From positions 405,618-469,617 of IMG/VR virus record IMGVR_UViG_3300028840_006907: DNA of 64,000 bases, one strand, 5' to 3'. The DNA comes from a virus. Both the position numbers and the translations under genes were made by a program. Shown one piece after another: positions 6,801 through 53,637 of this stretch; the stretch's first letter is position 1; every line of letters begins with the position of its first letter. Below the pieces are notes generated by a model. The model saw only the letters and a list, made by a program, of their open reading frames with translations, did not search any database and was not told the origin of the DNA.

Positions 6801-7903
6801 TAGATGATATTGTAATCACAGATGCCATTTATATTGACAGTGCTTCTGGTTTCCCCTTTATCGAAGGTAATGTCATTGAAATTGTGGGTATGGCATTGGC
6901 AGCTACCGGTAATTCTTATACCAGAAATGGTGCAAGTGTTAATTTTACTCAGGGTGAGAAAAAAATAAGCCCATTTGCTTATTCATCTCGTTTAAAAATA
7001 ACTTCATTTCCTCCTGGGTCTATATCAAGTGTTCAGTTTACTAGCCTCGATGCTGATAGTGGTCAAATCTCCACAGCTTCTGGGGTATTTCTTGGTATAA
7101 GTACAACAGAAACTGTGAATAGTTTAACTGATCATTTTGCTTGGGTTGATGTTGGAGCGGGAGATGTTCTTACTCCAGTAACAGTGACAGGATTTAATAC
7201 CACGACTTTAACAGTAAATTTCGCTACTCCTATATCACCAACTAGTGTCAAGATACAGGCTTTAATAAAACAGGCTAATTTAATTTATGGCACTGATGCT
7301 GATGATGGATTACAGATAGCTTATAATTTTATTCCGAGTCAAACTCCTACAAATCTTCCTTCCAGTTTAATAGTAGGGATGGTTACTAATCCTACAAGTA
7401 TTTATATATCAAATTTAGGTACTGGAGGCAGTCTTGTAGATAAGGAACCTTATAGTTTCCCTATTGATAGTATCCCTGTAAATAATAGCTCTATTATTGA
7501 TGATAATGAATTTTATAATTTAGATCTATTTAGATTTTCTAATTTCTCAGTAGATAGTGGGTTTGTTCAGATGCCTACTATTGTTCCTGGTTCTTTTGGG
7601 GAAGAGTTAACTTTTTCAAGTTTAACTACTGATGAGTTGTTACGTACTTTTTATAGTACATGTGATACAGAATTTGCCTTCAGAACAGAAGGTATAAAAA
7701 TTGGAATACCGAGAAAGATATTTATCGCTACTATAGGAAGAGTAAAAGAGAACTCTACTCAATTATTACGAGGTGAATATGTTCTTATAATAATTTCCAG
7801 AGATAGCCTTACTGATTTAGAAAATTACACAGGTTGTGAAACAGGAAGTGGTAATGTTATCGGGATCTACCGATTACCGAATAAGCCATTGGTAAGAAAG
7901 TAA
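3827..7903 (+). CDS. giant putative structural protein with embedded BNR/Asp-box beta-propeller (1358 aa); paralogue of 13823..16876
   Basis: AAGGAG RBS upstream; seven S/T-x-D-G-G-x-x-W-like repeats (GGQTWS, GGVTWL, GVNWS, GGSNWI, GGLSWV, GANWN, GGTTWT); shared blocks with the 13823 ORF (VVFQKQKPPL, LEVWR, RVQIQYKIR, YAWAIPMF, DILDVRR). Confidence 0.7.
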   Translation: MAENLGTGVSFVDESNGYNYDKVVFQKQKPPLDTELNLAQEIQNLLAKRHIKGMPSGWLNIEDFYTSSLLENQFYTQDPDTAIPEYAVVNGMVLYVTNTGTSETNSNLITLTDPPTSGNLVNGVILEVWRALLDTETDNNRPDSTVVIDSLMAIDAVTENSAWTVGENGLILATENGGQTWSVQLIDTKKKLNDVHFINTTVGWVAGDNGAIGRTSSGGVTWLVLQSGYTENFNGIHAATHLIAWVAGDGGIILKTVNGVNWSAQNSNVTANLNDIYFYDSLVGWAVGDNGTIIKTTDGGSNWITLTSGTTENLNAVFFYDLNFGFAVGDNGTILRSSDGGLSWVDQSGNIYTGSGYTSLSVNYTDVTMAPSLDIHVTNEEVTSQFTGSNKNCTVVNVPMTKGDGLGTTTNSPADVDGEGNLSTVVTVNGTSVLIDSIDGTTGQIILNQAPQACDTVLVSYWHKVSPDIFTGRAWITGASGTVLMSPDIGANWNQQTPNTSYDLNGVSFVDQNKGWVAGAFSVMRHTEDGGTTWTTQISDTVSRRVQRVYNEGNVDTVIFLDDEMIHPDTNIETTKRVQIQYKIRVIENVDPFSYPDAGLGSAGIVALGPNATGSFAYQNMGSTTGDYGLWQAKCSNTVDGYAWAIPMFFVNRRNSTTFNAANNTNGSNAKGTSNIRPDLLTGVDVVDQDILDVRRQIFIPSVTELLNSSFDALMNNQLKTRFFRQTTGGDSYSVEPLQLDYIAHGSGTEIDATLSEAVSGQVTSITTTSTISQSVPASTSLPFDVTLSIPVGTRGLFHPNSIYYTARYVSNSATYDGKPIPGEFTGIGTNSVTFNFSAKVNTTNEDTNLVSYDIVAHYVIFSPKSLSKIPSTPQLVENTGTVSEPSFFYRGVFTSETSGRKIEEWDSGISGYPSYTLAYPVIEAGSTAQEARASSIEVHLYIRLTSTEIQSINQIKISQEVYPDVADTTSYYNLYCVSEINNITSGFSFKIDDIVITDAIYIDSASGFPFIEGNVIEIVGMALAATGNSYTRNGASVNFTQGEKKISPFAYSSRLKITSFPPGSISSVQFTSLDADSGQISTASGVFLGISTTETVNSLTDHFAWVDVGAGDVLTPVTVTGFNTTTLTVNFATPISPTSVKIQALIKQANLIYGTDADDGLQIAYNFIPSQTPTNLPSSLIVGMVTNPTSIYISNLGTGGSLVDKEPYSFPIDSIPVNNSSIIDDNEFYNLDLFRFSNFSVDSGFVQMPTIVPGSFGEELTFSSLTTDELLRTFYSTCDTEFAFRTEGIKIGIPRKIFIATIGRVKENSTQLLRGEYVLIIISRDSLTDLENYTGCETGSGNVIGIYRLPNKPLVRK
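4270..5460 (+). other. BNR (Asp-box) beta-propeller-like domain inserted in the 3827..7903 protein
   Basis: Seven Asp-box-like repeats spaced about 40-60 aa apart; region absent from the paralogue 13823..16876. Boundaries approximate. Confidence 0.55.
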
Positions 7904-22472: not shown

Positions 22473-25400
22473 ATGGCACCAAAAAAACAATTTGTAAACA
22501 CAGGATTTATGGAATTTGTGGAGGATACTGTTCAAACCAGAATAGCCGAAATGCCATGGATGGCTGATCGTACGTTTAAATTAGCCAAGAGCATGGAAGA
22601 AGTGGAAAATTACATTGATAGGGCGATAGAAGCGAAAAGATGTGCCCTTGATTTGGAAACGACAGGACTTAATACAAGGGTAAAAAAAGTAGATGGTAAA
22701 ATTGTTCCTATTGGTAAAATAGTAGGTTTTGCTTTATGTTATGATCCGAAAGTGGCCATTTATATCCCTATTAATCATAGAGAAGGGATAGAATTTAATC
22801 TTCCAGAAGAGGCTGTTTTAAAGGAGATAAAACGTCTTTGTTATAATTGTATTACAATATACCATAATGCTAAATTCGATTTAACTTATTTAAAGAATTA
22901 CGGTATTGTTCTTGATAATCATAATCAATTCGAAGATACACTTTTGCTGGCGTATTTGCATGATTCAGGAAGAAAAGCCAATAAATTAAAGGATCTCTCT
23001 CCAGAATTACTTGATCAACCAATGTTAAAATTTAATGAGGTTGCCAAAGAAGGTCATTTTGATCTTGTCTCCCCTGATGTGGGGTATACATATGGAGCCT
23101 CTGATGCTATGTGTACTATGGATTTATATATCTTTTTTACGGAACAGGAAATTATAAAGAGTCAACAGATGATATATAACTTAGAGAAACGGGTTGTATT
23201 TGTTATGATGGATATGGAAGCAAATCTAATAAAAATTGATGTTCCATATCTCAAGGACTTAAAAACAAAAGTTGAAAACCGTATAGAAGATATTAAAAAA
23301 GAGATACATCAATTGGTCGGTTATGAATTTAATTTGGGAAGTTCACAGAAATTAGGTAAAATACTATTCGATGATTTGAAATATAAATATCCAGAGAAAA
23401 CAAAAACCAAATCTGGGCAATACAGCACTGATAGTAAAACCTTAAATAAAATAGCTGACCTTTACCCCATTGTTAAGAAGATCATAAATTTCCGTGGATT
23501 GGAAAAAGTTTTATCGACATATATTAATAATCTTTTGAACAACCACGATGAAGAAGGTTTTGTAAAACTTCAATTTAAACAGACTGGAACTGATACCGGA
23601 AGATTTTCGAGTCCTGGTGGTCAGGGTATTCATATAGATGGGTCTTCAGGAGTTAATGTCCAGAGTATTCCAAAGATGCCTAGTGAGGATAATCCTGACA
23701 TTGATATGAGAAGGGCGTTTATTGCTCGTCCTGGTAAAACGATGGTAGCGATTGACTATGCAAATGAAGAGATGCGGGTAGCTACAAATATTTCGAATGA
23801 GACTGCCTGGATTGAATCGATTCATAAAGGAATTGATTTCCATACTGCTACAGGTGCTATTATCTCGGGAAAAGATCCTAAGGATGTATTAAAAAGTGAG
23901 AGGAAAATAGGAAAGACAGTTAATTTTTTGGCCCTTTATTTAGGAGGCCCATTTACTCTTGCAGGTAATGCTAAAATAACTGTACCGGAGGCCAAAAAGA
24001 TTCTAGCCACATTTTTTGCAGGAGTTCCTAAACTGAAGAAATGGATTGACCGGGTGATCGTGGTAGCTAGAAAAGAGAAATTTGTTAAAACTATTTTTGG
24101 GCGTACTAGACCGTTAAATAAGTACTATGATAGTGGGGATAAGGGATTGGCTGCTCATGCAGATCGATGTGCAGTTAATACAAAAATTCAAGGTTGCCTT
24201 TGTCAAGAAGAGCGCTGTTTAACAACAGAAGGTTATTTATCTATTATAAAAATCAAAAAGTTAAAGGAATCAGGCCAAAATTTAAAAATATGGACTGGGG
24301 TTTCATGGGAGGATTTTGAAGTATTGGATCGTGGAGAGGCTCAATTAGCGATAATTGAATTAAAAAATGGAATGATTCTTCATTGTGATACACGGCATGA
24401 AGTATTAACAGTAAATAATGAAAGATATGAATTTAAAAAATTTAATGAATTAACAGAAGATACTAATATATGTATATCTCGCCCTCAATTATTAAAATTT
24501 GGGAGTTATCCTGAGGAAATTATTTTTGAGGGAAATGTATGGAATGCACAGAAATTGAAAGTGAGTACGGCAGAGGAGTGGGATTTTATAGCCTATTTAT
24601 TAGGATGTGTTATTGGAGATGGCTCAATATACATTGATAAAAAGGCATCTAAATATGTTATAACATTAAATTTTGGTGAAGAAAAGATAAGAAGAATATT
24701 TCCTGATCTTAAGAGAAAATTAAATGATCTCGGATTAAATATTTCGGAACCTGTTTTAAATAAAGGTAGTAAAGGTATTTGTTATAAAACGAGTATCTGT
24801 TCCGTTACTTTAACAAAACTTTTTGGAGAAATGGGTTATCATTTTCATGATGCTCGTGATAAGAGAATCCCTCAACGAATTATGGAATCCCCTATAAAAA
24901 TGAGACAATCATTTTTACGAGGTTATTTTGATACAGATGGATGTAAGAAAGAGGCCAATAAATATGGTTTCCATACTCCTAATAAAGATCTATTGAGAGA
25001 TATTCAATTATTAGCTTGGACCCTAGGATGTCCCTCTACTATTTATGATTGTGGTGATGGCTCATCCATATTTAATTGGATGAATTATCGAATTTTTGCG
25101 GAATTAATGGACTTAACTTATAAAAAAGAAGAGAGAAAATGTAACACACAAAATATGCCTTTACCTGATTTTTTAAGAGAGCCTATATTAAATTCTTTAG
25201 GGAATTGTTATGTAAAAAATGGGAATGATCGCTCATATGTATGTAAAGTTAGGAAGGGTAAAAATGTTAGTTTACCTGGAATAGTGTCATTATTAGAAAG
25301 TTATAATTGTGAACTACCGGAAATTTATTATCATTCCAAATTAGAAAAGAAAAGAGTTTTAAGTAAAAAAGAAGTTACATACACTTTATCAGTAAAATCT

Positions 25401-26261
25401 CCTTTACATCGGTTTGATTCTGCTGGAATTATAAGTAAAAATACTTCGGCGGATATTATGAAGGCTGTCATGGCCCGGATGAACTCCTGGCTCACGAGAA
25501 ATAATCTGCATGATGATATAAAAATATTGATTACCATGCATGATGAATTGGTTTTTGAGATTACAACTGAAAAATTGCAGATACTGGTACCAGAGATTTG
25601 TAAGATCATGCAGTTGAATGATATTATTCAGGGTCAATTGAAATGGCCCATTCCTTTGGAAGTTGATATACAGTATGGTGATACTTGGAGAGTTAAAGGT
25701 GATTTTCTTAAGGATTTTCCTGATTTGAGGAATAAATTAAGTGAGCCTTTAATGGAATTTGAATCTTTACAGAAGATAAAAGATGATGTGCCAAAAGATA
25801 AAAATGATGAACCTCCGGTGGAAAGTAATAAAATTGAAGAAGAAAATTCAGAGAAAGATTCAAATGAGGTACCAGATAACCAGATTATAGAGGAAAAAAC
25901 TCCTTCTGAAATACAAGATATAGAAAAGTCTGAACAACATGATGTACCTAAAGATAAGGAGGTTTTGGAGAAAGTTGATAGTGGTACTGTAGATAGTAGT
26001 AAAATATCAGAAAAAAAAACTCTAAACGGCGGTGATATATCGGGTCAATATTTGATTTATACTCTGCGAGAATTGAGTACGATAAGTTCACGATGGTTGA
26101 ATGATATTTTGGTTTTTTTGAATGATGAGGGCAATCGATATGAAGAGAAAGATAAAAAAATTTTAAAAATCCGTGACAGATCAGGGAACTCTTTATTAGT
26201 TTCAGAGTATAAAGTACACCCTGAAAGTTTTTCCCTTTTGGCAAGATTTTTTGGGATATGA
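22473..26261 (+). CDS. family A DNA polymerase with 3'-5' exonuclease domain, interrupted by an intein, plus C-terminal extension (1262 aa precursor)
   Basis: Exo motif ALDLETTGL; Pol I motifs DYANEEMRVA (A), RKIGKTVNFLALYLGG (B), NTKIQG/TSADIMKAV split by the insert, ITMHDELVFE (C). Confidence 0.9.
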   Translation: MAPKKQFVNTGFMEFVEDTVQTRIAEMPWMADRTFKLAKSMEEVENYIDRAIEAKRCALDLETTGLNTRVKKVDGKIVPIGKIVGFALCYDPKVAIYIPINHREGIEFNLPEEAVLKEIKRLCYNCITIYHNAKFDLTYLKNYGIVLDNHNQFEDTLLLAYLHDSGRKANKLKDLSPELLDQPMLKFNEVAKEGHFDLVSPDVGYTYGASDAMCTMDLYIFFTEQEIIKSQQMIYNLEKRVVFVMMDMEANLIKIDVPYLKDLKTKVENRIEDIKKEIHQLVGYEFNLGSSQKLGKILFDDLKYKYPEKTKTKSGQYSTDSKTLNKIADLYPIVKKIINFRGLEKVLSTYINNLLNNHDEEGFVKLQFKQTGTDTGRFSSPGGQGIHIDGSSGVNVQSIPKMPSEDNPDIDMRRAFIARPGKTMVAIDYANEEMRVATNISNETAWIESIHKGIDFHTATGAIISGKDPKDVLKSERKIGKTVNFLALYLGGPFTLAGNAKITVPEAKKILATFFAGVPKLKKWIDRVIVVARKEKFVKTIFGRTRPLNKYYDSGDKGLAAHADRCAVNTKIQGCLCQEERCLTTEGYLSIIKIKKLKESGQNLKIWTGVSWEDFEVLDRGEAQLAIIELKNGMILHCDTRHEVLTVNNERYEFKKFNELTEDTNICISRPQLLKFGSYPEEIIFEGNVWNAQKLKVSTAEEWDFIAYLLGCVIGDGSIYIDKKASKYVITLNFGEEKIRRIFPDLKRKLNDLGLNISEPVLNKGSKGICYKTSICSVTLTKLFGEMGYHFHDARDKRIPQRIMESPIKMRQSFLRGYFDTDGCKKEANKYGFHTPNKDLLRDIQLLAWTLGCPSTIYDCGDGSSIFNWMNYRIFAELMDLTYKKEERKCNTQNMPLPDFLREPILNSLGNCYVKNGNDRSYVCKVRKGKNVSLPGIVSLLESYNCELPEIYYHSKLEKKRVLSKKEVTYTLSVKSPLHRFDSAGIISKNTSADIMKAVMARMNSWLTRNNLHDDIKILITMHDELVFEITTEKLQILVPEICKIMQLNDIIQGQLKWPIPLEVDIQYGDTWRVKGDFLKDFPDLRNKLSEPLMEFESLQKIKDDVPKDKNDEPPVESNKIEEENSEKDSNEVPDNQIIEEKTPSEIQDIEKSEQHDVPKDKEVLEKVDSGTVDSSKISEKKTLNGGDISGQYLIYTLRELSTISSRWLNDILVFLNDEGNRYEEKDKKILKIRDRSGNSLLVSEYKVHPESFSLLARFFGI
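24195..25442 (+). mobile_element. intein with LAGLIDADG homing-endonuclease domain, inserted in the polymerase (about 416 aa)
   Basis: Insert begins with Cys after KIQG and ends with Asn before TSADIM; LAGLIDADG-like motifs LLGCVIGDGSIYID and FLRGYFDTDG; N-terminal boundary ambiguous by about 21 nt. Confidence 0.7.
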
Positions 26262-26340: not shown

Positions 26341-26511
26341 AGTTTTTGATTAAAAATTAAGCTGAAATTGGCTTATTCTAAGTATCTACAATTTATAGAC
26401 TTACAAATATAAAAAGCTGAGTTAAATTCGAGCCATAAATTTTACGTAGAGACTAGGGTAAGCTCAAAAAACATAAATACTAAAATAACACAAATAAAGG
26501 AGCGTCCCTCA

Positions 26512-27273
26512 ATGCTACCTACTAATGATATTGCTGTCTTTGCCCAAAAAAATGATGCAGAATTTCGTGCTCTAGTCCGAAAACAGTGCGAGTATCTTGA
26601 TTATCCTGGTTCACCTGATGATGTTGTCCAAGAGCTTTATGTGAAGTTCTTAACAAAAAAGAAAATCATTGAAGCTTATGATCCCAGTTATAATGTACAA
26701 ATATCTTCTTACCTTTTTAAAATTATCCGTAATTTTATAATCACCAGAGTGAAAAGTCACGATGGTCGATTTCGTCGGTGCCGTGTTTTAACCCCTTCTC
26801 CTACTGATGATACTAACGAGTTCGATCTTATTCCCGCTTATTATGATGTTTCAGATGATTTCTACGACAATCAATATTTTAACAATAATTCTTTTATGGA
26901 AGAATTCAGCGATTTTGAGCGTCAGTTTTCAAAATCACCTCAGAACATAAAATTTAAGTTACGAAAGAGACAACATAAAAATACTTCTCTCAATTTTTTA
27001 AAAATATTGGAACGTCTTCAAAAGCGTGGTAAAATCGGTGAAGAATTTAATGAAATCAAGGATTTAATCACAGAGATAGAAGAAAACGGGTGTACTCTAT
27101 TGGACCTTTTCCGACTTCTGTATAAGGGATACAACAATAAAATGATCGCTCGGATTTATGGAGTATCAACAACTACAATAAGTGCTATGAAAAGCAAATT
27201 AGCAAAAGCCATGATTAAATACGGTATAAAGTATGATCGAGCTACGGTGTCCAAAGTGTCAATCCAAAGTTGA
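26512..27273 (+). CDS. putative sigma-70/ECF-like sigma factor (253 aa)
   Basis: Region-2-like VVQELYVKFLTKKKIIEAYDPSYNVQISSYLFKIIRNFII and region-4-like HTH KMIARIYGVSTTTISAMKSKLAKA. Confidence 0.5.
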   Translation: MLPTNDIAVFAQKNDAEFRALVRKQCEYLDYPGSPDDVVQELYVKFLTKKKIIEAYDPSYNVQISSYLFKIIRNFIITRVKSHDGRFRRCRVLTPSPTDDTNEFDLIPAYYDVSDDFYDNQYFNNNSFMEEFSDFERQFSKSPQNIKFKLRKRQHKNTSLNFLKILERLQKRGKIGEEFNEIKDLITEIEENGCTLLDLFRLLYKGYNNKMIARIYGVSTTTISAMKSKLAKAMIKYGIKYDRATVSKVSIQS

Positions 27274-27482
27274 GATTGAAGACAAAACAGTTGAAGGGGA
27301 TAAAAGGACTGCAGTTTTCTGTAAGAAAGAAGGATGTTTCTTCTATAAGAATGCATTAATCGGTTTAGAGAGGCTGGAGTCAAAAGTCTACATATCTGAA
27401 TCCCTTGTTTAAAAAAATTTAATTTTCTTCTTATTGTGATCATCTCTTAATGTCGTATTATCTATAGGAGGTTTTTTGGAAA

Positions 27483-27746
27483 TTGAATATAAACCAAGTT
27501 TTTATACTTTTGCTAGGTGCTTTGGCAATTTGGTTTTTAAGTCGAAAGGAACGGTGGAGTCGGTGGGGTTTTATTATCGGTATGATCAGTCAACCTTTCT
27601 GGCTTATTGAATCTTTTCAAAACAAACAATGGGGATTTTTTTGTTTAAGTATCTGGTACACGTATAGTTGGGCACAAGGGATTTGGAACTATTGGATAAA
27701 GGGTAACAATGAAAACAAAAAAGAAAAAGAAAAACAACAAGAATAA
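27483..27746 (+). CDS. small Trp-rich membrane protein (87 aa), TTG start
   Basis: AGGAGG RBS 12 nt upstream of TTG; two hydrophobic segments; 38-nt overlap with the next gene. Confidence 0.4.
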   Translation: MNINQVFILLLGALAIWFLSRKERWSRWGFIIGMISQPFWLIESFQNKQWGFFCLSIWYTYSWAQGIWNYWIKGNNENKKEKEKQQE

Positions 27747-28512
27747 GCAAAAACCTAATTCTATTTCTGTGAAGTCAGAAACAGATAAAGTTTTGATATC
27801 AGAATCAGTTCCTGAAATTACTACTGATATAATAATTCTCCTTTATGGAGATCGAAAATATCTAGATGTATGTGTTGCATCCGTTGAAGAGCACTGTAAT
27901 AATTATGTCTTGCATATAATTGATAACAATGAAGTCAATAGAGGTTTTACCAAGGGTGTAAATGAAGGTATTCTTGCCGGTAGTGCTCCCTATGTTTGGT
28001 TACTTAATCAGGATGCTGTGGTTCTTAAGGGAGCACAACAGGCTCTTATAGATCGATTTTCTTATGGGGAAAAAGTCGGGATTGTTGGATCTATGCAGAT
28101 AGATCACGATGATCCTGATATTATTCGTCATGGAGGAACTATTCAGGCGTTCCCCAATGGAATCCATAAGGGGGGAAGAATCTCTATGGGGCATTGTAGA
28201 GTTCCTGAGAAATCCACCTGGATTAATTTTGCCTCAGCAATGCTGAGAAGGGAAATGATTCAACATATAGGACTATTGGATGAAAATATGTTTTTGATAT
28301 GCTCAGACAGTGACTATTGCTACTGGGCGCGGTATCGGGGTTGGGAAGTCTGGTATGAACCTAGATCACAAGTCAAGCATCGTTTGGAGGCTTCATCAAA
28401 AGGTGTCTCTGAATGGCATCGGAAGGATACTCTCGCTTTTATGAATAAGTGGGGAATAAATAATTTAGGTCAGAAATCAGAATTATTTCAGAAATTAGAT
28501 ATATATCCTTAA
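27709..28512 (+). CDS. glycosyltransferase family 2 (267 aa)
   Basis: GT2-A-type blocks IIILLYGDRKYL, NQDAVV, CSDSDYCYWARYRGWEVWYEP. Confidence 0.7.
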   Translation: MKTKKKKKNNKNKQKPNSISVKSETDKVLISESVPEITTDIIILLYGDRKYLDVCVASVEEHCNNYVLHIIDNNEVNRGFTKGVNEGILAGSAPYVWLLNQDAVVLKGAQQALIDRFSYGEKVGIVGSMQIDHDDPDIIRHGGTIQAFPNGIHKGGRISMGHCRVPEKSTWINFASAMLRREMIQHIGLLDENMFLICSDSDYCYWARYRGWEVWYEPRSQVKHRLEASSKGVSEWHRKDTLAFMNKWGINNLGQKSELFQKLDIYP

Positions 28513-28526
28513 TATGGGAGATTTTT

Positions 28527-28760
28527 ATGAGTGGTGTAAACATAAAATTAAAACAACAGTTGAGGGAACCTACATATTGTACTCCTCGTTGTAGAGCTTC
28601 TGATGACAATTGCATCATTCAGAAGCAAGATTATTATATCTCTATCTCAGGTTATGGAGCGAATGGCCTTGCTAATTTATGTATTTGTATGAAACATTCA
28701 GAAGATTTCTTGAATCAAGTGAAGCAATTGTTAAAAGATATAAAGAAACTGGAAAAGTGA
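28527..28760 (+). CDS. hypothetical Cys-containing protein (77 aa)
   Basis: Track ORF in the co-directional block. Confidence 0.4.
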   Translation: MSGVNIKLKQQLREPTYCTPRCRASDDNCIIQKQDYYISISGYGANGLANLCICMKHSEDFLNQVKQLLKDIKKLEK

Positions 28761-28762
28761 TT

Positions 28763-29140
28763 ATGGGTAATACATATCGAAAACAAGGATATGAAGTAGT
28801 AGAAAATGGAATAGCTACCGGTAAAGTGGTGTTCAGTTATGACCCTGAAGAGTACGATGTCCATACCCTGGCTAATCCAAGAGATGGGATGCCAAACAAA
28901 ACTATAACTTCAAAATGGTTTCGTTGTGATGTTTGTGGTGGTAAATTTCCCCTACAAGAATATAAAGATTCCTGGGATTGGGGAGGCCCACATTGCCCGA
29001 ACCCTGAGTGTGGTAATGGGGGCATCGGGCTGTTTGCGAAGCGAGAAGGGCCAGTAAGAAATTATCGGGGTGTAATAATACATAAGATGAAAGAAACGAT
29101 TAAATCTATGGAAAAAGCTATAAAAAAATATAGCTCTTAA
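28763..29140 (+). CDS. hypothetical zinc-ribbon protein (about 125 aa; track ORF trimmed to an internal Met)
   Basis: Track ORF 28679..29140 overlaps the upstream gene; Met at 28763 follows its stop. CDVCGGKF...HCPNPECGNGG motif. Confidence 0.45.
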   Translation: MGNTYRKQGYEVVENGIATGKVVFSYDPEEYDVHTLANPRDGMPNKTITSKWFRCDVCGGKFPLQEYKDSWDWGGPHCPNPECGNGGIGLFAKREGPVRNYRGVIIHKMKETIKSMEKAIKKYSS

Positions 29141-29168
29141 AAAAATAAAAAGGTAAAGAGGATGAAAA

Positions 29169-29405
29169 ATGAAAAAGGATGAGATTAATTATAAATATTT
29201 GACCGATCCTGAATTTTCGATAAAGGCAGATCTTAAAGCAATTGAAATTTCTAAAAAGATAGATGTAGAAAATATAGGAATAGAACTAGCTCTATTTGGT
29301 CAATGTTTACTTAATTATATAGATGAGGAAGTGGTATTGATTGATCCATTAAAATATGAAATAGTCATAAATAAAAAAGGTAAGGAGGATATAAATGTTA
29401 CCTAA
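29169..29405 (+). CDS. hypothetical protein (78 aa)
   Basis: AAAGAGGA RBS upstream. Confidence 0.4.
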   Translation: MKKDEINYKYLTDPEFSIKADLKAIEISKKIDVENIGIELALFGQCLLNYIDEEVVLIDPLKYEIVINKKGKEDINVT

Positions 29406-29577
29406 TTCGAAAATTGTAGTTTTTAAAAATGGGAATTCAAAAATTATTGGGAAAGAAAAAACCAATGATTGTTACGAATTGTCAAATTTGGGACGGGATG
29501 CTGGTAGAGTTACTAAAGATGAAGATCGTGATCATGTACCTGTACATCAAGATGTACATAACTCAGAAAGGGGATAA
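29395..29577 (+). CDS. hypothetical protein (60 aa)
   Basis: Track ORF overlapping the previous stop; AAGGAGG upstream. Confidence 0.3.
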   Translation: MLPNSKIVVFKNGNSKIIGKEKTNDCYELSNLGRDAGRVTKDEDRDHVPVHQDVHNSERG

Positions 29578-29579
29578 TC

Positions 29580-29891
29580 ATGTCAAAAGAAGTACATGTT
29601 GATTGTGAGATAAGATCGATGACCATTATGGAAAATACATTGAATCAAATGAGAATCAGTTATAATGTAAAGAATGCTGATACTTTTACCATAACGAGAC
29701 CTTATCATAATATTGTTATAAATGGTAAAAAAGGTAAGGTTTCATATGATGATATGGATAAAAAGTATGTGGAAAAAATTCTTCAGAATTACACGGTTAA
29801 TTGGTACAAAGATCGTGCTATTCGTGAAGGTAATGAGATCCGAGAAGAAGTTCAGGCGAATGGGGAGATTCATATCCATGTCATTCGATAA
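29580..29891 (+). CDS. hypothetical protein (103 aa)
   Basis: AAAGGGGA RBS then ATG. Confidence 0.45.
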   Translation: MSKEVHVDCEIRSMTIMENTLNQMRISYNVKNADTFTITRPYHNIVINGKKGKVSYDDMDKKYVEKILQNYTVNWYKDRAIREGNEIREEVQANGEIHIHVIR

Positions 29892-30063
29892 GAAACCGGA
29901 AGTAGAGGAGAATAAACTTACTCTACGTATAATGCCCGATGGCTCTACTCGTATTGATTTCTTTCCCGTGTCTTTCAGTGAATTTATTATTGATAATGTT
30001 TACAATAAGGAAGATCGGGAAAGAATGAAAAAGACGAATTGCCGTAAAATTTATTGCGGGTAA
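29878..30063 (+). CDS. hypothetical protein (about 61 aa; internal Met of track ORF 29722..30063)
   Basis: Start chosen to give a 14-nt overlap with the upstream gene instead of a 170-nt overlap. Confidence 0.3.
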   Translation: MSFDKKPEVEENKLTLRIMPDGSTRIDFFPVSFSEFIIDNVYNKEDRERMKKTNCRKIYCG

Positions 30064-45693: not shown

Positions 45694-48600
45694 TTATGGT
45701 GAATTCCTATAAATGGCATATATTGAGTAGACATAATTTGATACAGTACTACTTCCGAAGTGATTTGGCATTCCATCAGACCACGATGATCCATTAACCA
45801 AAGCTCTTCCTGAATCATGTTCTTCATACCGTACTTCTGTAGCATTTTCAAATACCCATGCTAACCAGATCTTAGTTCCTGCTAAAATATTTACCGGTGT
45901 TGTTAAACTGATTGTTTGCCATCCTTCATTTGAATTTACATTTGTTTGAGGAGTGATGCCTAATAAGTTCTCAGGAACGTTATCTCCATCATATACAGCC
46001 AAAATAAGGTTGCCGGTACCACCACCATGGTAAATGGCTATACTGTCTATATAGTCATTATATGGCATTGTGAAAGGCATCGCACGTCTTGGGGTAGTTG
46101 TTACTTTCTTCGGAAAAATGGTTGTGTACCCTATTGTTGGAGCAACATGAGCCACGGCAGATCCCGGCACAGACCAATGAGTAATATTATAAGCTCTTCT
46201 AGGACTGTTATCTATTGCTCTTACCCTATAAGTACAGAGATTAGGATTATAAATTCCAGTATCAACGTAAATAGGGCTTTCTTGCCATTTGCTATTATGG
46301 CATGGTCCTCCAATACATTCAAAATGATATTCAACTCCATTCTCATCTGTGGCTTCAACAGCTTCCATCATTATAGAATTATGTCCCATAATTACCGGAG
46401 CAACTTCCCAGGATAAAGGGTTTGGTTGTGGTGGGGAATAATCGGGTTGTGGATTTGATCTTAATTCAAAAGGAGCCATACGAGTTTTATTCCCAGTTCT
46501 AAGATATATTCCAGTAACGGCTACAGGATATAATGTATCTATTCCTGAGGTAGTTGATACATCAATTAAATCTTTTTTAAGATCAAAGTTGTAGTCATGG
46601 ATAAGAGTATCTGGGACAGCACCGATGCCAACCCGAGCTTCTTTTCCATTACTATACATTTTTTTAAATCCTTTATCATACCGAGTATCATAAGCAATAC
46701 GGCATATTGTGTTTTTATTAGTTATTACTTCTACAAAGAGTCTAAAAGGATCGAATGATGTAATATTTGTGAATCCATAAAATTGGTGAGTATTGGGTAA
46801 TGGAAATTTGAATTTATACAAAGTAGCCATACCACTATCACTGATAAATTCAGTGAAGACTCCAACTGTATTTAAGGAAGTTCCTTGTTTAGTTCCCAGT
46901 ATTTTCCATACCTTGTAATGGTCAGGATGGTTAACAGATGTGTAAGGAGTTCGATCTGTCCATAATACATCTTTTTTTGTGTCGCCTAAATGCAAACCAT
47001 AAAGGAGTATTTCTCGTTCTATTCTGAAAGATATTCCTAATACACCAATAATTTCCATTTTGGGTATACCTTCGGCTGAACAAACACTATCGAGATCTTC
47101 TTGTAAAAAGCCATAATAACTATGCCAATATACTCCAAATCGGCCATCACCTATCCCGATACGGGCATCTCGGCCTGAAACATAATGGGCTATTCTTTTT
47201 TCGGTCCAGTTTCTGGTATCATAAGCAATATCGTAGTCAATAACAGTATCATTTACAGTATCTACAACTAATACTTCGTAATACATTCTAAAATCACTGG
47301 TATAATTTTTAATACCAATATAAGAAAAGAATTGAGACACATTAGGTTCATCAAATTTGAGTTTGAAACTTGTGGCCATTCCATTAGTGGTGAGTAGTCT
47401 TGTACAATAGGTACTATCTTCATATTCATAGAATTTTGTTACGATGGCATTTGAATCATTGCCTCTTATGTCCCAATTAGCTAATACTATGCTGGTATCT
47501 CGAATATAAAATTTATCACTCATAGCATTAGTAGAGTCATGAAAAAATGTTGGTATTTCCATTTCAACGGTATCACATTTAAATCTAATTTCAATAAGTC
47601 GGGTGATTCTTTTGGGAACTTTTCTTAATGCTACAGCAATTTCATTTAAAGAGTGTTGTAAATGATGATTTACTCTTTTCCATGATCCATCATTATGTGG
47701 GCCTATACCATAGCGCAATTCACCATTTTTACTGATATATTTATCCCGATGCCGAGTATCAAAAACTAGAAGGATTGTGTCATTGTCTTTTGTTTCCAAA
47801 TAATGAGTGATTCTGTAATGTCCCCATGATTTTAATCTATAATGGGCATCTAAATAAGGGGCATGCATATCGAGGTTAAAAGAGTCATTCATGAATAGTT
47901 TCCATCCTACATTGAGATTCCCTTCTAATCTGATTAACATATCCATAAAAGTATTTCCAATATTTACTTTATCGGTATCACTTTGAAGGATAGTATATTT
48001 GGTTCCCCGAGCTGAAGTGTAATTTCTCCAATCGCCATATTGTCTTATATCTTTGTAAAAATCCATTGTAATTATATCAGAGATCCCAGACATAGACCCG
48101 TTGTCTAATCCAATTACACTATAAGTTGAAATTAGCGATTGATTTATATTTCGATCTACATAGAATGTATCAGATATAGTATCAATAGGACTTGTGTCTT
48201 TATATACTATATATTGGCTTGTAGGGATACTATTCCAACGAAGCATAGCTGAATCTCTATCAGCTTGAATAACTATTAAATTTTTAGGGTATATTTGGGA
48301 AATATCTGTCTGGGTACAAGTAGCATCATAACATACTTGAAAATTATCAATATTAAATTGAAGAAGACTATCTCGGCAAAAGTGGGTTATACCATATATT
48401 TCTAAAGCTGAAATTAAATTGAGATTTTCAGCGAAACTTATAACTCTGAGAGGAGATTCCTGTTCCCAGCCATTGGCAATTGCTTCACTATCTGACCAAG
48501 TAGGATCTAATTTGACACTTAAGTGGGACCAGGAGTTAATTTTAAAATCTTCTCTTGTAAATATTTTTTTCCATGCTTTATTAATATTGCATCTTAATCT

Positions 48601-49824
48601 GACTTCGAAAAAATTCATATCAGGTGTTTTGATGTCGAAATTGATTCCGGTGATATTATTACAAGCTAAATTACCTGTATATCTTTTATCGACAGATACT
48701 CCGATTTCATCATGTCTGATATTGTTTGATTTCACTTTTAATGAGGCTCCAGGGTTTCCTTTATCTATGTCATATGAAATAGAGGATCGAAGGCTTTTCC
48801 AATTACTTAAATTATCGCTATTATTCCATTCTTCTTTAAAGGCTTGTCTATCACAATCAGTTGTATCTATTTCATAAAAATTAACTGTATCTCTTTTTGC
48901 TGGCATCAAGATTTTAATCCATCTGACTTGATACTTCTCTAATACGTCAAGAGAGACTTGTTTTACTTCCATTCCTAAACAGTCTACTTTATATACGTTA
49001 TATTCATCTATGGAAATATCTCCTTCTCTAAAACTGTAGTCAGCATTAGCATTAAGAATAGGTAAATAGTTCCATACATCATTTTTATCTTTAACAAGAG
49101 CCATTACATCGGCGAGTTGACCGTCATGGAGATAAAGGGTATCGGTTGAGGGTAATTTTTTCATATAGAAATAAATAACAGATGAATTTGCCTGTGTTAA
49201 TTCAGGGCTTATTAAACTGGTGCTAGTAGTATCCCATTGTTCACTGGAATAATTGCAGGAAGGCCCGAAATCATATTTATACAGAGTGGAATAGAATACT
49301 GAAGTATTTAACCAGGATCGGGGTGATTTGAAACCAGGATTAGGGAGTATTATTAAAGTATCTTGAAGTTGAATAATTACGGGAAAATCTAATCCTATGG
49401 TACTGAATCTGATTTTAGATCCATCTGCAGTAGCAATGGGGTGGCCTTTCTCAATCCATTGGCCCTCAGTGACAAATATGTCCTTTAATAGATTGTAAAG
49501 ACCATAGTAATATGATTCAGTATCATTTTTATCATAGAAGTGTTTAACAATCACTACAAGATATTCATATCCTAACTTTTTTCTTAGACTATCTGTTAAA
49601 GCCATATCGACTTGCCCATAGCCAACAGAGTATACAGTATCACCATTTTCAGTACTGAAATAAAATTCTTCGTCTAAACCGAATCCATCTTTCCAGTCTG
49701 TACTTCTGTACCAACCATCTCCATCGATAGCAACATTTTTTAAAAGATATGATATTTCATCCGCTTGAATAGCCAACCCTGTGAGGAACAGGTTAATAAT
49801 TATGATTAATAGATATTTCAACAC
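45694..49824 (-). CDS. giant secreted protein (1376 aa), function unknown
   Basis: N-terminal signal-like MLKYLLIIIINLFLTGLAIQA; single long ORF. Confidence 0.7.
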   Translation of the reverse strand: MLKYLLIIIINLFLTGLAIQADEISYLLKNVAIDGDGWYRSTDWKDGFGLDEEFYFSTENGDTVYSVGYGQVDMALTDSLRKKLGYEYLVVIVKHFYDKNDTESYYYGLYNLLKDIFVTEGQWIEKGHPIATADGSKIRFSTIGLDFPVIIQLQDTLIILPNPGFKSPRSWLNTSVFYSTLYKYDFGPSCNYSSEQWDTTSTSLISPELTQANSSVIYFYMKKLPSTDTLYLHDGQLADVMALVKDKNDVWNYLPILNANADYSFREGDISIDEYNVYKVDCLGMEVKQVSLDVLEKYQVRWIKILMPAKRDTVNFYEIDTTDCDRQAFKEEWNNSDNLSNWKSLRSSISYDIDKGNPGASLKVKSNNIRHDEIGVSVDKRYTGNLACNNITGINFDIKTPDMNFFEVRLRCNINKAWKKIFTREDFKINSWSHLSVKLDPTWSDSEAIANGWEQESPLRVISFAENLNLISALEIYGITHFCRDSLLQFNIDNFQVCYDATCTQTDISQIYPKNLIVIQADRDSAMLRWNSIPTSQYIVYKDTSPIDTISDTFYVDRNINQSLISTYSVIGLDNGSMSGISDIITMDFYKDIRQYGDWRNYTSARGTKYTILQSDTDKVNIGNTFMDMLIRLEGNLNVGWKLFMNDSFNLDMHAPYLDAHYRLKSWGHYRITHYLETKDNDTILLVFDTRHRDKYISKNGELRYGIGPHNDGSWKRVNHHLQHSLNEIAVALRKVPKRITRLIEIRFKCDTVEMEIPTFFHDSTNAMSDKFYIRDTSIVLANWDIRGNDSNAIVTKFYEYEDSTYCTRLLTTNGMATSFKLKFDEPNVSQFFSYIGIKNYTSDFRMYYEVLVVDTVNDTVIDYDIAYDTRNWTEKRIAHYVSGRDARIGIGDGRFGVYWHSYYGFLQEDLDSVCSAEGIPKMEIIGVLGISFRIEREILLYGLHLGDTKKDVLWTDRTPYTSVNHPDHYKVWKILGTKQGTSLNTVGVFTEFISDSGMATLYKFKFPLPNTHQFYGFTNITSFDPFRLFVEVITNKNTICRIAYDTRYDKGFKKMYSNGKEARVGIGAVPDTLIHDYNFDLKKDLIDVSTTSGIDTLYPVAVTGIYLRTGNKTRMAPFELRSNPQPDYSPPQPNPLSWEVAPVIMGHNSIMMEAVEATDENGVEYHFECIGGPCHNSKWQESPIYVDTGIYNPNLCTYRVRAIDNSPRRAYNITHWSVPGSAVAHVAPTIGYTTIFPKKVTTTPRRAMPFTMPYNDYIDSIAIYHGGGTGNLILAVYDGDNVPENLLGITPQTNVNSNEGWQTISLTTPVNILAGTKIWLAWVFENATEVRYEEHDSGRALVNGSSWSDGMPNHFGSSTVSNYVYSIYAIYRNSP

Positions 49825-52000: not shown

Positions 52001-53182
52001 CTATCGAGTCTCCCAGCTCCCGGAATCAAGAGTAAAAAGAGCTAGTGGTGTTAAAATCAAATATGTGACTGGCATTATTATAGCAATTGTGAGAAAAGCT
52101 AAAGGAAATTTAGCTTTTTTATTTATGGGAAGATTACGTGTGTCTATTGTATAAATAATTACGAATATGAATAGTAATAAAATATGAAACATTGCAAATT
52201 CAAAGAAATATCCGGACATGGATGTCTGTATAAGAATCATGGGATAGGATAAAAGCATAGCAAAAAGTCCAAGATAATGGATACTTACAATTGGATTGAT
52301 TTTCCATATATGAGATAACCCGCAGAAAAAATCGATTAAATTAGATCTTCTCCATCGTAATTGTTGCAGTATATATTGATCTAAGTTCTCAGGGACTTTT
52401 GTATATGAATGAGCATCAAGAGTAAGAAAGGTTTTATAGCCAGCTTTAATTATTTGTCTTGTTAAGAATCGATCTTCACCGTATTTAATTGGAAGCCCGA
52501 AGAAATTCCTTTTTAGTAAAATATCTTCAAGTTCAATTAATACTTTAGTTCGATAAGCTGTTAAACATCCTGATAAGCACATAACACTGAAAAAAGATCT
52601 CTCTAAATTTTTTAAATGTTTATAACTGTAATAATATTTTACTGTCTGCATTTGGGTGAGCCAATTAACATTGTTGTTAACCACATCGACTCTCCCACCA
52701 ACTGCAACTATGTCTTCTTTAGTGAAACGTCTAATAAGGCGAGAAATTGCATGTTTATCTAAAATTACATCAGAATCAATTGAAATAACAAATTCTGTTT
52801 TACAACGACGTACAGCATTGATAATACTTTTTCTTTTTCCTACATTATTTTTATTTCGAAATATTTGTGCATTAGGGTATTTAACAATTTCTTTTTTGGC
52901 TATTTCATAACTATTATCGGTAGAACAATCATCAATAACCATGACATGTAAATTCTCTTTTGGATAAACTTGTTCAGAGAAGCTACGGATAGTTTTGGCT
53001 ATACTACCACCTTCATTGTACAAGGGAACAATAATAGTTATGGGAGGATGAAAATTTTCTTTGATCTCAGATAAAGCTTTTTTATTTAAATTAAGATAAA
53101 ATCTTCCGAAGATATATCTATTAACAAAAACAACGAAAATGAGTAGATGTGCAATTATTAAGAGAATGCCAAATAAATCCAC
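52001..53182 (-). CDS. processive family-2 glycosyltransferase, polysaccharide-synthase-like (393 aa)
   Basis: GT2 blocks ITIIVPLYNEGGSI, VMVIDDCSTDNS, ISIDSDVIL, GEDRFLT and QxxRW motif QQLRWRRS; N- and C-terminal TM helices. Confidence 0.8.
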   Translation of the reverse strand: MDLFGILLIIAHLLIFVVFVNRYIFGRFYLNLNKKALSEIKENFHPPITIIVPLYNEGGSIAKTIRSFSEQVYPKENLHVMVIDDCSTDNSYEIAKKEIVKYPNAQIFRNKNNVGKRKSIINAVRRCKTEFVISIDSDVILDKHAISRLIRRFTKEDIVAVGGRVDVVNNNVNWLTQMQTVKYYYSYKHLKNLERSFFSVMCLSGCLTAYRTKVLIELEDILLKRNFFGLPIKYGEDRFLTRQIIKAGYKTFLTLDAHSYTKVPENLDQYILQQLRWRRSNLIDFFCGLSHIWKINPIVSIHYLGLFAMLLSYPMILIQTSMSGYFFEFAMFHILLLFIFVIIYTIDTRNLPINKKAKFPLAFLTIAIIMPVTYLILTPLALFTLDSGSWETR

Positions 53183-53199: not shown

Positions 53200-53637
53200 T
53201 CATTCAAATACTGTTTTATATTTTAGTCCTGCTTTTCTTACATATTCATATAATTTAAAATCATCTGATTCTATAAGAACATGGTCTTCACTGCGTGGTC
53301 CTGGCTTATATATTATTTTTGAAAATTGATCTTTATCCATCATAATGATAATATCAATAGCACTATCAATATTTTTATACCTTTCAGGTGGTACTGGGAA
53401 ATCTTTATATTTTTCAGGTTTTAAAGGATATCCATCCGTAACTCTCTTACCAGGCCAGATTCCTAAAAGGTAAACTATTTTACGAGTAGTTATTATTTTC
53501 TTCAATTCATAACGATTATAGGCCATTATTGATTCACTCATAAGAGGGTCATCGTTATCTTCTCTTAATACAGTACAAATAATAGGTGTATGGATAGAGA
53601 TAGGAAATCCGCCATCTTCAAAATCAGTTATTAACAT
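53200..53637 (-). CDS. hypothetical protein (145 aa)
   Basis: Track ORF; start overlaps the stop of the MaoC gene. Confidence 0.5.
   Translation of the reverse strand: MLITDFEDGGFPISIHTPIICTVLREDNDDPLMSESIMAYNRYELKKIITTRKIVYLLGIWPGKRVTDGYPLKPEKYKDFPVPPERYKNIDSAIDIIIMMDKDQFSKIIYKPGPRSEDHVLIESDDFKLYEYVRKAGLKYKTVFE

What the first reader, a model, noticed from the sequence alone, without database searches (positions are those of the whole stretch)
27483..28512. GT2 glycosyltransferase overlapped by a Trp-rich membrane mini-protein
A soluble GT2-A-type glycosyltransferase on the plus strand is preceded by, and overlaps by 38 nt, an 87-aa Trp-rich two-helix membrane protein with a TTG start. This may form a small glycosylation unit distinct from the minus-strand synthase module. 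It is unclear which start the GT2 really uses.
Basis: seen in the sequence. Interest (0 to 1): 0.28.

Follow-up and report, generated by a model that had tools for sequence, protein, structure and literature searches.

The report
Phage glycosyltransferase beside unrelated half-PnuC-like gene

Summary
The coordinates, the TTG start, the 38-nt overlap and the Trp richness (9 of 87 residues) all hold. The mini-protein has three helices, not two.

The mini-ORF is a real gene under strong purifying selection (pN 0.13, pS 0.76). It has a perfect AGGAGG upstream. No identical protein is on record, so public gene callers appear to have missed it. It belongs to a large uncharacterised family: 1,493 clusters and 365 IMG/VR loci. 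Several weak but concordant tests link the family to the N-terminal three-helix bundle of PnuC.

The GT2 is a soluble GT-A enzyme. It is a conserved gene of a huge-phage clade, on contigs of 300-590 kb. It sits in the block sigma-like, Zn-ribbon, variable slot, GT2, p60, p103, AAA.

Only 3 of 49 non-redundant GT2 loci carry the mini-gene upstream. The closest GT2 relative lacks it, and 92 other mini-gene loci have no GT2 of this family. The "glycosylation unit" reading is therefore not supported.

The GT2 starts at ATG 27709. Its disordered polybasic N-tail recurs in nine close relatives, including one with no upstream overlapping gene. The overlap is a by-product of that A-rich tail.

The functions of both proteins remain inferred.

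The parts
27466..27471 (+). Shine-Dalgarno AGGAGG of the mini-gene, 11 nt upstream of the TTG start
   Evidence: Read from the sequence. SD-like motifs precede most + strand genes of the window, and this is one of four perfect AGGAGG matches.
27483..27746 (+). Mini-gene: 87-aa, three-helix, Trp-rich inner-membrane protein of the PHROG 22312/2421 family, a probable remote homologue of the PnuC N-terminal three-helix bundle. Residues 74-87 form a non-conserved charged tail.
   Evidence: PHROG E-values 4.9e-9 and 1.3e-7. Homologues and alignments. pN/pS. AF2 model. PnuC links.
27489..27542 (+). TM helix 1 (residues 3-20), carrying the nearly invariant Q5, I8 and I16
   Evidence: AF2 secondary structure. 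Conservation in A1/A3.
27549..27620 (+). TM helix 2 (residues 23-46), carrying the family signature G33-x3-Q37-P38-F39-W40
27630..27707 (+). TM helix 3 (residues 50-75), with the motif WYTYSWxQGIWNYW. G66 and W71 align with the invariant G84 and W88 of E. coli PnuC.
27709..27746 (+). 38-nt overlap. The A-rich 5' end of the GT2 (its Lys run), read in the mini-gene's frame, gives the tail NENKKEKEKQQE*.
   Evidence: The same AATGA(A/G)AACAAAAAAGAA junction ends a different upstream gene in L010.
27709..27822 (+). Polybasic, disordered N-terminal extension of the GT2 (residues 1-38)
   Evidence: pLDDT is below 50 for residues 1-26. Lys/Arg-rich extensions of variable length occur in nine close relatives (P0016-P0029) and are absent from distant ones.
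27823..28512 (+). GT-A catalytic domain of the GT2 (residues 39-267). Invariant motifs include DNN..N.GF, WLxNxDA (D102) and SDS(D/S)YC (D200).
26512..27412 (+). Upstream anchors of the conserved block: sigma-like gene (26512-27273) and 59-aa Zn-ribbon gene (27233-27412)
   Evidence: Pfam. Synteny across relatives.
29395..29891 (+). Downstream genes conserved with the GT2: p60 (29395-29577) and p103 (29580-29891)
   Evidence: Present downstream of the GT2 in 29 and 30 of 38 non-redundant loci respectively. No family hit.

Best explanation
These are two independent genes that happen to abut in a huge-phage genome.

(1) The GT2.
- Shown: 27709-28512 encodes a soluble, cytoplasmic GT-A family-2 glycosyltransferase. 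It is a conserved gene of this phage clade and sits in the replication/transcription module, in the order DnaB, primase, PolA, sigma-like, Zn-ribbon, variable slot, GT2, p60, p103, AAA. It starts at ATG 27709 and carries a clade-specific, disordered polybasic N-tail.
- Inferred: it uses an NDP-sugar and a divalent metal held by the invariant Asp motifs, and it acts on a conserved intracellular or phage-encoded acceptor rather than on variable host surface glycans. The polybasic tail would tether it to a polyanion such as nucleic acid or an anionic membrane.

(2) The mini-gene.
- Shown: 27483-27746 is a real but unannotated accessory gene. It lies in a variable slot that holds other cargo, or nothing, in most relatives. 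Its product is a three-helix membrane protein of a very large phage-borne family with no conserved genomic partner. The family shows weak but reproducible, register-consistent similarity to TM1-3 of PnuC.
- Inferred: like SemiSWEET, it works as a parallel homo-oligomer of three-helix bundles in the host inner membrane. The mid-membrane Q37, W40, N69 and W71 and the aromatic belt would line a binding or translocation site for a small polar-aromatic metabolite, such as a nucleoside or vitamin.

(3) The overlap. The 38-nt overlap and the mini-protein's charged tail are by-products. The GT2's A-rich Lys run has no stop codon in the mini-gene's frame. In relative L010 a different upstream gene ends on the same junction sequence.
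For: Real gene: pN 0.129 against pS 0.761; AGGAGG upstream; 14 close homologues; 1,493 clusters at 50% identity; 365 IMG/VR loci.

Independence of the two genes:
- 3 of 49 GT2 loci carry the mini-gene, against 30 of 38 that carry p60 or p103.
- The slot between the upstream anchor and the GT2 core measures 63-2618 nt and holds varied ORFs.
- The closest GT2 relative lacks the mini-gene.
- Mini-genes occur in T7-like, P2-like, Kagunavirus, Bacillus and Vibrio phages and in a bacterial chromosome, none with a GT2 of this family.
- No recurrent neighbour was found.

PnuC link:
- PF04973 E=0.0031 over profile positions 5-71 of 175.
- PHROG 1880 (PnuC-like) E=0.0032.
- 23 of 83 family members hit PF04973, best 9.2e-8; no other family is hit by more than 2 members.
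- hhalign against a 9-sequence PnuC alignment gives E=8.5e-4 over 68 columns, matching PnuC residues 26-93.
- My own PnuC HMM scores 17 of 144 family members at 10 bits or more, the dozen best all on the N-terminal part of the profile. Reversed controls give 0 of 144 and shuffled controls 1 of 144.

Junction.
Against: Every PnuC test is individually weak.
- The window protein scores 17.9 bits against a Pfam cut-off of 27.3.
- hhalign probability is only 24%, and about 1% against E. coli PnuC alone.
- A profile search of PDB sequences found no PnuC.
- Foldseek found nothing significant.

Against a transport role in NAD+ salvage: no NadR or NMNAT gene lies within 4 kb of any of 96 mini-gene loci or anywhere in the window. 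The full-length phage PnuC genes I inspected sit next to one (PMC13464706).

Oligomerisation and transport are untested. The GT2's donor and acceptor are unknown. Adjacency in three related lineages could still reflect a lineage-specific functional link. Overlapping genes can be translationally coupled.
Confidence: 0.68

Rival explanations
1. The mini-protein and the GT2 form a functional glycosylation unit. In this reading a membrane anchor or flippase-like partner is translationally coupled to a soluble transferase.
For: The genes are adjacent on the same strand with a 38-nt overlap. The GT2's own SD is weak (AAGG), so upstream translation could help expression. The pairing recurs in three related lineages: the window, L010/L011 and L104. 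A polybasic tail could bring the GT2 to the membrane.
Against: 3 of 49 GT2 loci carry the mini-gene, and the closest GT2 relative lacks it. L010 has another gene between the two, and L104 has a 192-nt gap. 92 of 95 mini-gene loci have no GT2 of this family. No fusion proteins were seen among the listed hits. There is no hit to GtrA or other flippase families.
Confidence: 0.07
2. The mini-protein is not a transporter. It is a membrane-acting moron, for example a superinfection-exclusion or host-takeover factor that binds or perturbs a host inner-membrane protein. The PnuC resemblance would then be either convergent or a case of mimicry of a host transporter subunit.
For: It is small and stand-alone, and it sits in variable or early regions of many unrelated phages. 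PHROG 22312 is filed under moron / auxiliary metabolic gene / host takeover. No metabolic partner genes lie nearby. In a bacterial chromosome it follows an HTH_3 regulator, near a ParE-like toxin gene.
Against: The same near-invariant intramembrane motifs (G-x3-QPFW, G66, N69) are kept in phages of Gram-positive and Gram-negative hosts and in huge phages. That fits a universal ligand better than a host-specific protein target; this is inference. There are no PADLOC hits.
Confidence: 0.2
3. The mini-protein is a holin or antiholin-type lysis protein with three transmembrane helices.
For: It has about 80 residues, three predicted TM helices and, in the window copy, a highly charged C-terminal tail. 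In Dickeya phage Katbat the homologue lies in the late region, between the spanin genes and the large terminase gene.
Against: The charged tail is not conserved: most members end just after WIK, and here it comes from the overlap. Katbat has a separately annotated holin. No endolysin or spanin gene was identified next to it in the window or in the other annotated phage loci inspected; AgentSmith is the exception, with a putative endolysin about 1.8 kb upstream. It also occurs in a bacterial chromosome. It has no hit to a holin family in Pfam or PHROGs.
Confidence: 0.04
4. The mini-ORF is a chance open frame and is not expressed, as the missing gene call in the public record would suggest.
For: The source record's gene calls skip it. 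No identical protein is on record, although the identical GT2 is listed from four sources. It has a TTG start and is short. The promoter-like match upstream is no better than chance.
Against: pN is far below pS, and third-position changes dominate. There are hundreds of homologous clusters with conserved motifs. A perfect SD lies upstream. The homologues in L010 and L104 were called as genes.
Confidence: 0.01

Closest known systems
PnuC / Pnu-type vitamin transporters (Pfam PF04973; structure 4QTN), including the phage PnuC-like NR importers of the NARP3 pathway (PMC13464706)
   Same: There is profile-level similarity to TM1-3, the N-terminal three-helix bundle, in a consistent register: G66/W71 align with PnuC G84/W88. 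PnuC is the best membrane-protein structural match. Both are Trp-rich helices and both are carried by phages.
   Different: The mini-protein has about 80 residues and three helices, against about 230 residues in a 3+1+3 (7-8 TM) arrangement. It scores below the family cut-off. It lacks the C-terminal bundle that carries the PnuC-invariant W185, W188 and N192. It is never next to NadR or NMNAT. Transport is untested.
SemiSWEET (bacterial three-helix half-transporters that dimerise into a SWEET-like unit)
   Same: The concept is the same: a free-standing three-helix bundle of about 80-90 residues related to one repeat of a 3+1+3 transporter, with conserved mid-membrane Trp and Asn. SemiSWEET chains appear among the non-significant Foldseek hits.
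   Different: There is no sequence or profile hit to PQ-loop or MtN3 families. The signature is QPFW in helix 2, not PQ in helix 1. Dimerisation has not been shown.
PHROG 22312 ('membrane protein') and PHROG 2421 (unknown function)
   Same: Direct family membership: E=4.9e-9 and 1.3e-7 over nearly the full length.
   Different: These are uncharacterised bins and carry no mechanism.
Soluble GT2 / GT-A glycosyltransferases such as SpsA, rhamnosyltransferases (TIGR01556), GlfT2 and the K4CP domains
   Same: The Pfam GT2 domains, the GT-A fold and the invariant Asp motifs.
   Different: It scores far below every NCBIfam equivalog cut-off (45 bits against 200.55 for TIGR01556). It has no PDB sequence relative. 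It carries a family-specific insert, GSMQxDxxDxDxIRHGGT..FP.G.H.GG..SMGH. It has a polybasic N-tail. It sits in a phage replication module.
Gtr-type phage serotype-conversion modules (GtrA flippase, GtrB GT2, GtrC)
   Same: A phage-borne GT2 next to a small membrane protein.
   Different: The GT2 here has no C-terminal TM helices. The mini-protein is not GtrA-like (three helices, no PF04138 hit). The pairing is not conserved.

Membership tests
Glycosyltransferase family 2 (GT-A fold) | Pfam GT2 domain above the gathering score | tested here: met
   PF13641 36.9 bits (cut-off 27); PF00535 31.2 bits (cut-off 23.3).
Glycosyltransferase family 2 (GT-A fold) | GT-A Rossmann-like fold | tested here: met
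Glycosyltransferase family 2 (GT-A fold) | Acidic DxD-type metal/nucleotide-binding motifs | tested here: met
   D72, D102 (WLLNQDA) and D200 (SDSDYC) are invariant in 30 homologues. Assigning them to metal or nucleotide binding is inference.
Glycosyltransferase family 2 (GT-A fold) | Glycosyl transfer from an NDP-sugar; identity of donor and acceptor | not testable with these tools
   Needs enzymology.
PnuC / NMN_transporter (PF04973) | Score above the family's curated cut-off | tested here: not met
   Window protein: 17.9 bits against 27.3. TIGR01528 gives no hit for the window protein, and 13.2 bits against 42.45 for P0007.
PnuC / NMN_transporter (PF04973) | 3+1+3 architecture with 7-8 TM helices | tested here: not met
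   Three helices in 87 residues. Most listed family members have 75-125 residues.
PnuC / NMN_transporter (PF04973) | Homology of the three-helix bundle to a PnuC repeat | tested here: inconclusive
PnuC / NMN_transporter (PF04973) | Genomic linkage to NadR/NMNAT, as seen for phage PnuC | tested here: not met
   No tblastn hit (E at most 0.01) in 96 mini-gene loci plus the window, 768 kb in all.
PnuC / NMN_transporter (PF04973) | Uptake of nicotinamide riboside or another vitamin | not testable with these tools
   Needs transport assays.
SemiSWEET / PQ-loop | MtN3/PQ-loop profile match and PQ motif in helix 1 | tested here: not met
   No such Pfam hit for the window protein or for 83 family members. 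Foldseek hits to 4X5N are non-significant (E=3.4).
SemiSWEET / PQ-loop | Three-helix protomer that forms a parallel homodimer | not testable with these tools
   The three-helix protomer is predicted. No multimer prediction was available.
Holin | Placement in a lysis cassette with endolysin or spanin, and a match to a holin family | tested here: not met
   No holin hit. No lysis gene was identified next to it in the window. Katbat has its own annotated holin.
Gtr-type serotype-conversion module | GtrA-like four-helix flippase plus membrane-anchored GtrB, conserved together | tested here: not met
   No GtrA hit. The GT2 lacks TM helices. Co-occurrence is 3 of 49.
PHROG 22312 / 2421 | Significant full-length HMM match | tested here: met
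   E=4.9e-9 (residues 6-75 on profile positions 7-76 of 80) and E=1.3e-7.

The most novel reading that the evidence does not exclude
The mini-protein may represent a 'SemiPnuC' family. These would be free-standing, phage-spread three-helix-bundle homologues of PnuC that assemble into a minimal facilitator for a nucleoside- or vitamin-like metabolite. They would stand to PnuC as SemiSWEET stands to SWEET. I found no such half-size PnuC described in the literature I could search. The family is large (1,493 clusters at 50% identity) and appears to have been missed by the gene callers behind the public records here.
Probability: 0.22. Interest if true: 0.65.

Novelty: new variant of a known kind. 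Interest (0 to 1): 0.33.

Why it matters
For the finding as submitted, the result is a correction. The overlap does not mark a functional pair, and the GT2 start is the annotated ATG.

Three things remain useful.

1. A conserved small gene is absent from the source record's gene calls, and no identical protein is on record. It has a TTG start and overlaps the next gene. This shows how such genes drop out of huge-phage catalogues.

2. Its family is very large and uncharacterised. If it truly is a single-repeat PnuC relative, it supplies the half-size counterpart that is known for SWEET but that I did not find described for PnuC. It would also be a tractable 80-residue model for how three-helix-bundle transporters assemble.

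3. The GT2 is a strongly conserved gene of an uncultured huge-phage clade (61 invariant columns in 30 sequences). It has no relative of known structure and only one weak match (27% identity) among 50,697 GenBank phage records. It sits in the replication module with two conserved small ORFs. That makes it a defined target for finding out what these phages glycosylate.

Tried and rejected
DNA-level search.
- blastn of 26400-29200 against GenBank phages found nothing.

Sequence and structure tests of the PnuC link that gave little.
- A profile search of the mini family against PDB sequences gave only a chance hit.
- hhalign of the family against E. coli PnuC alone gave about 1% probability. It only became informative with a 9-sequence PnuC alignment.
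- My third and last homologous-protein search, with E. coli PnuC, listed only relatives of at least 86% identity and was useless for building a profile. I replaced it with phage PnuC genes fetched one at a time.
- Foldseek against PDB gave no significant hit.
- The afdb50 library was unavailable.

Context tests of the mini-gene.
- Neighbour clustering around 95 mini-gene loci found no recurrent partner.
- Domain fusions as functional hints gave one dUTPase_2 fusion (P0230). A HAD-like DLDGTL tail in P0164 was not confirmed by Pfam. This is too thin to use.
- PADLOC gave no defence-system hit.
- The sigma-70-like promoter match at 27434-27461 is no better than chance: 13 sites found against 11.8 expected.

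Frameshift idea, considered and rejected.
- I considered a +1 frameshift or transcriptional slippage in the A-rich overlap that would fuse the mini-protein to the GT2.
- The A runs are only 5-6 nt long.
- No fused homologue was seen among the listed hits.
- The two genes are separated in L010 and L104.
Full report
**1. Observation**

The window is a low-GC (about 33%) phage-like genome. Tail and baseplate genes come first, then a replication module.

At the stated coordinates there are two + strand ORFs:
- 27483-27746: TTG start, 87 aa.
- 27709-28512: ATG start, 267 aa.

They overlap by 38 nt. The small protein has 9 Trp in 87 residues. AlphaFold2 with 15 homologues gives three helices, at residues 3-20, 23-46 and 50-86, with mean pLDDT 77.5. 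Loop 1 (SRKERWSRW) is strongly positive, which suggests an N-out/C-in topology; this is inference. The larger protein passes the Pfam gathering scores for GT2 families PF13641 and PF00535.

**2. The mini-ORF is a real gene**

*Family and homologues.* It matches PHROG 22312 ("membrane protein", E=4.9e-9) and PHROG 2421 (E=1.3e-7) over nearly its full length. Fourteen metagenomic homologues share 43-71% identity. A profile search of 1.84 billion cluster representatives finds 1,493 clusters at E of 0.001 or better, and 697 at 1e-10 or better; most listed hits have 75-125 residues. IMG/VR holds 365 loci.

*Selection.* Against the homologue in L010, pN is 0.129 and pS is 0.761 (saturated). The differences fall 14/6/32 on codon positions 1/2/3.

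*Start codon.* A perfect AGGAGG lies 11 nt upstream of the TTG, in a genome where SD-like motifs precede most genes. Homologue P0004 begins MNINQVFILL, the same N-terminus as the TTG start gives. Later in-frame starts would delete the nearly invariant Q5 and I8.

*Annotation gap.* The source record's gene calls skip this ORF. The protein database holds the identical GT2 from four sources, but no identical mini-protein.

**3. What the mini-protein resembles**

The conserved columns are G33-x3-Q37-P38-F39-W40 in helix 2, and Y59, Y61, W63, G66, N69 and W71 in helix 3.

Several independent but weak tests point to the N-terminal three-helix bundle of PnuC:
- Pfam PF04973: E=0.0031 over profile positions 5-71 of 175.
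- PHROG 1880 (PnuC-like): E=0.0032.
- Of 83 family members scanned one by one, 23 hit PF04973 (best 9.2e-8). No other family is hit by more than 2 members.
- hhalign against a 9-sequence alignment of E. coli and phage PnuC: E=8.5e-4, 68 columns, mini residues 5-76 on PnuC residues 26-93. Mini G66 and W71 fall on the PnuC-invariant G84 and W88.
- A PnuC HMM that I built scores 17 of 144 family members at 10 bits or more (maximum 24.9), and the dozen best matches all lie on the N-terminal part of the profile. Reversed controls give 0 of 144 and shuffled controls give 1 of 144.

Against this:
- The window protein is below every curated cut-off.
- hhalign probability is 24%, and about 1% against E. 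coli PnuC alone.
- The PDB sequence search finds nothing.

I rate single-repeat PnuC homology as probable, at about 0.65, not proven. I do not file the protein as a PnuC family member.

**4. No conserved partner for the mini-gene**

Homologues sit in unrelated phages and in varied contexts:
- Vibrio phage K453, between small hypothetical genes and an exonuclease gene.
- T7-like Dickeya phages, between the spanin genes and the large terminase gene, with a separate annotated holin.
- Escherichia phage ZCEC5, between a 423-aa hypothetical gene and a structural-protein gene, just downstream of the small terminase gene.
- Bacillus phage AgentSmith.
- P2-like Ralstonia phages, in the early region.
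- Another metagenomic phage with DNA methylases.
- A bacterial chromosome, after an HTH_3 regulator gene.

Clustering all ORFs within 2.5 kb of 95 loci gives no neighbour family present in more than 7 loci. No NadR or NMNAT gene lies near any of 96 loci or in the window. By contrast, the full-length phage PnuC genes I inspected are adjacent to one. The published NARP3 pathway couples exactly those two genes (PMC13464706). This weighs against a role in NAD+ salvage specifically. There is no PADLOC hit.

**5. The GT2 and its true context**

*Distribution.* The GT2 has 145 homologues with E at most 1e-5; the 120 listed share 55-100% identity with it. One is identical and lies on a contig of up to 469,617 bp. 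Others lie on contigs of 300-590 kb.

*Synteny.* The conserved order is DnaB, primase, PolA, sigma-like, Zn-ribbon, slot, GT2, p60, p103, AAA.

*Co-occurrence.* In non-redundant loci, p60 or p103 follows the GT2 in 30 of 38. The mini-gene precedes it in 3 of 49. The distance from the upstream anchor to the GT2 core ranges from 63 to 2618 nt, with varied ORFs in between. The three positive lineages are:
- the window itself;
- L010/L011, where two unrelated 80-aa genes flank the mini-gene, so that one lies between it and the GT2;
- L104, with a 192-nt gap.

The closest GT2 relative (P0016, 82% identity) has no mini-gene. The two genes are therefore independent neighbours. The mini-gene is one of several alternative cargoes of a variable slot.

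**6. The GT2 start and the overlap**

Nine close relatives (P0016-P0029) begin with ATG followed by a Lys/Arg run. A variable, often Pro-rich, linker of 35-66 residues in total then leads to the conserved TTDI core. Distant relatives start one to three residues before TTDI.

In the window no ATG, GTG or TTG lies next to TTDI. The only internal candidates are GTG 27769 and TTG 27793.

In L106/L107 the Lys-rich start is present with nothing overlapping it. It therefore belongs to the GT2 and is not the tail of an upstream gene.

The mini-protein's tail, NENKKEKEKQQE*, is this Lys run read in another frame. In L010 a different upstream gene ends on the same AATGA(A/G)AACAAAAAAGAA junction, with the tail ...EKNENKKEE*, while the L010 mini-protein ends at IKPDDKK. 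The overlap is thus a by-product of gene gain or loss in the slot.

**7. Mechanism: commitment and limits**

Shown:
- Both genes are real, and their start codons are as listed.
- They are independent of each other.
- The GT2 has a GT-A fold.
- The mini-protein is a three-helix membrane protein.
- The mini-protein family shows reproducible similarity to PnuC TM1-3.

Inferred:
- The mini-protein works as a parallel homo-oligomer that forms a SemiSWEET- or PnuC-like binding and translocation site for a small polar-aromatic metabolite (about 0.3).
- The main rival is a membrane-acting moron that targets a host membrane protein (about 0.2).
- A holin role is unlikely.
- The GT2 probably glycosylates a conserved intracellular or phage-encoded acceptor. 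Its polybasic tail suggests tethering to a polyanion. The co-conserved p60 and p103 are the first candidates to test.

**8. Verdict**

The submitted interpretation is mostly ordinary: adjacent, unrelated genes. The lasting value is an unannotated member of a large, uncharacterised, possibly half-PnuC family, and a well-defined conserved huge-phage GT2 of unknown substrate.

Noticed in passing
window 35187-37628 (+): An 813-aa protein with major-vault-protein domains: MVP_shoulder E=1.4e-23 and Vault_3 E=3e-11, plus a weak Band_7/SPFH hit. This is an unusual thing to find in a phage genome.
   Followed up: no
window 34276-35112 (+): A 278-aa protein with a strong NADAR domain (E=1.5e-51). It may act as an ADP-ribosylation-reversing counter-defence.
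   Followed up: no
window 52001-53182 (-), with 53637-54056 (-): A 393-aa GT2 with processive-synthase-type hits: Glycos_transf_2 E=1.6e-31, Chitin_synth_2 E=2.8e-17 and Glyco_trans_2_3. A MaoC-like dehydratase lies two genes away.
   Followed up: partly
window 22473-26261 (+): A family-A DNA polymerase of 1,262 aa interrupted by a LAGLIDADG intein. Relatives L010, L016 and L106 have uninterrupted genes of 835-850 aa.
   Followed up: partly
window 29395-30063 (+), then 30093-31682: Small ORFs p60 and p103, a third ORF of about 61-70 aa ending CRKIYCG, and an AAA ATPase follow the GT2. p60 or p103 is present in 30 of 38 non-redundant loci. None has a family hit. They are candidate partners or substrates of the GT2.
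   Followed up: partly
window 27413-27708, and the same position in L010, L104, L106, L116, L152 and others: The interval between the Zn-ribbon (or sigma-like) gene and the GT2 core is a variable slot of 63-2618 nt across relatives. It holds 0 to about 5 unrelated small ORFs.
   Followed up: yes
window 27233-27273: The 59-aa Zn-ribbon ORF overlaps the 3' end of the sigma-like gene by 41 nt. It is conserved at 50-81% identity in many relatives.
   Followed up: partly
window 45694-49824 (-): A 1,376-aa protein with an N-terminal Peptidase_M23 domain (E=2e-5, just below the Pfam cut-off). It may be a virion-associated lysin or tape-measure-like protein.
   Followed up: no
window 3827-7903 (+): A 1,358-aa protein with four BNR/YCF48-type repeat stretches (PSII_BNR E=7.1e-27). 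It follows a 1,057-aa Baseplate_J-like protein. It is probably a tail fibre or receptor-binding protein.
   Followed up: no
P0230 (226 aa) and P0164 (289 aa): Rare family members carry cytoplasmic C-terminal additions. One has a dUTPase_2 (all-alpha NTP pyrophosphatase) domain, E=7.5e-16. Another has a HAD-like DLDGTL segment that Pfam does not recognise. They could be nucleotide-related hints or gene-calling fusions.
   Followed up: partly
L012-L014, 5618-6243 in L012: In a bacterial chromosome next to methanol-methyltransferase genes (MtaB, B12-binding), the mini-gene homologue P0006 overlaps the end of an HTH_3 regulator gene by 4 nt. A ParE-like toxin gene lies 5 kb away.
   Followed up: no
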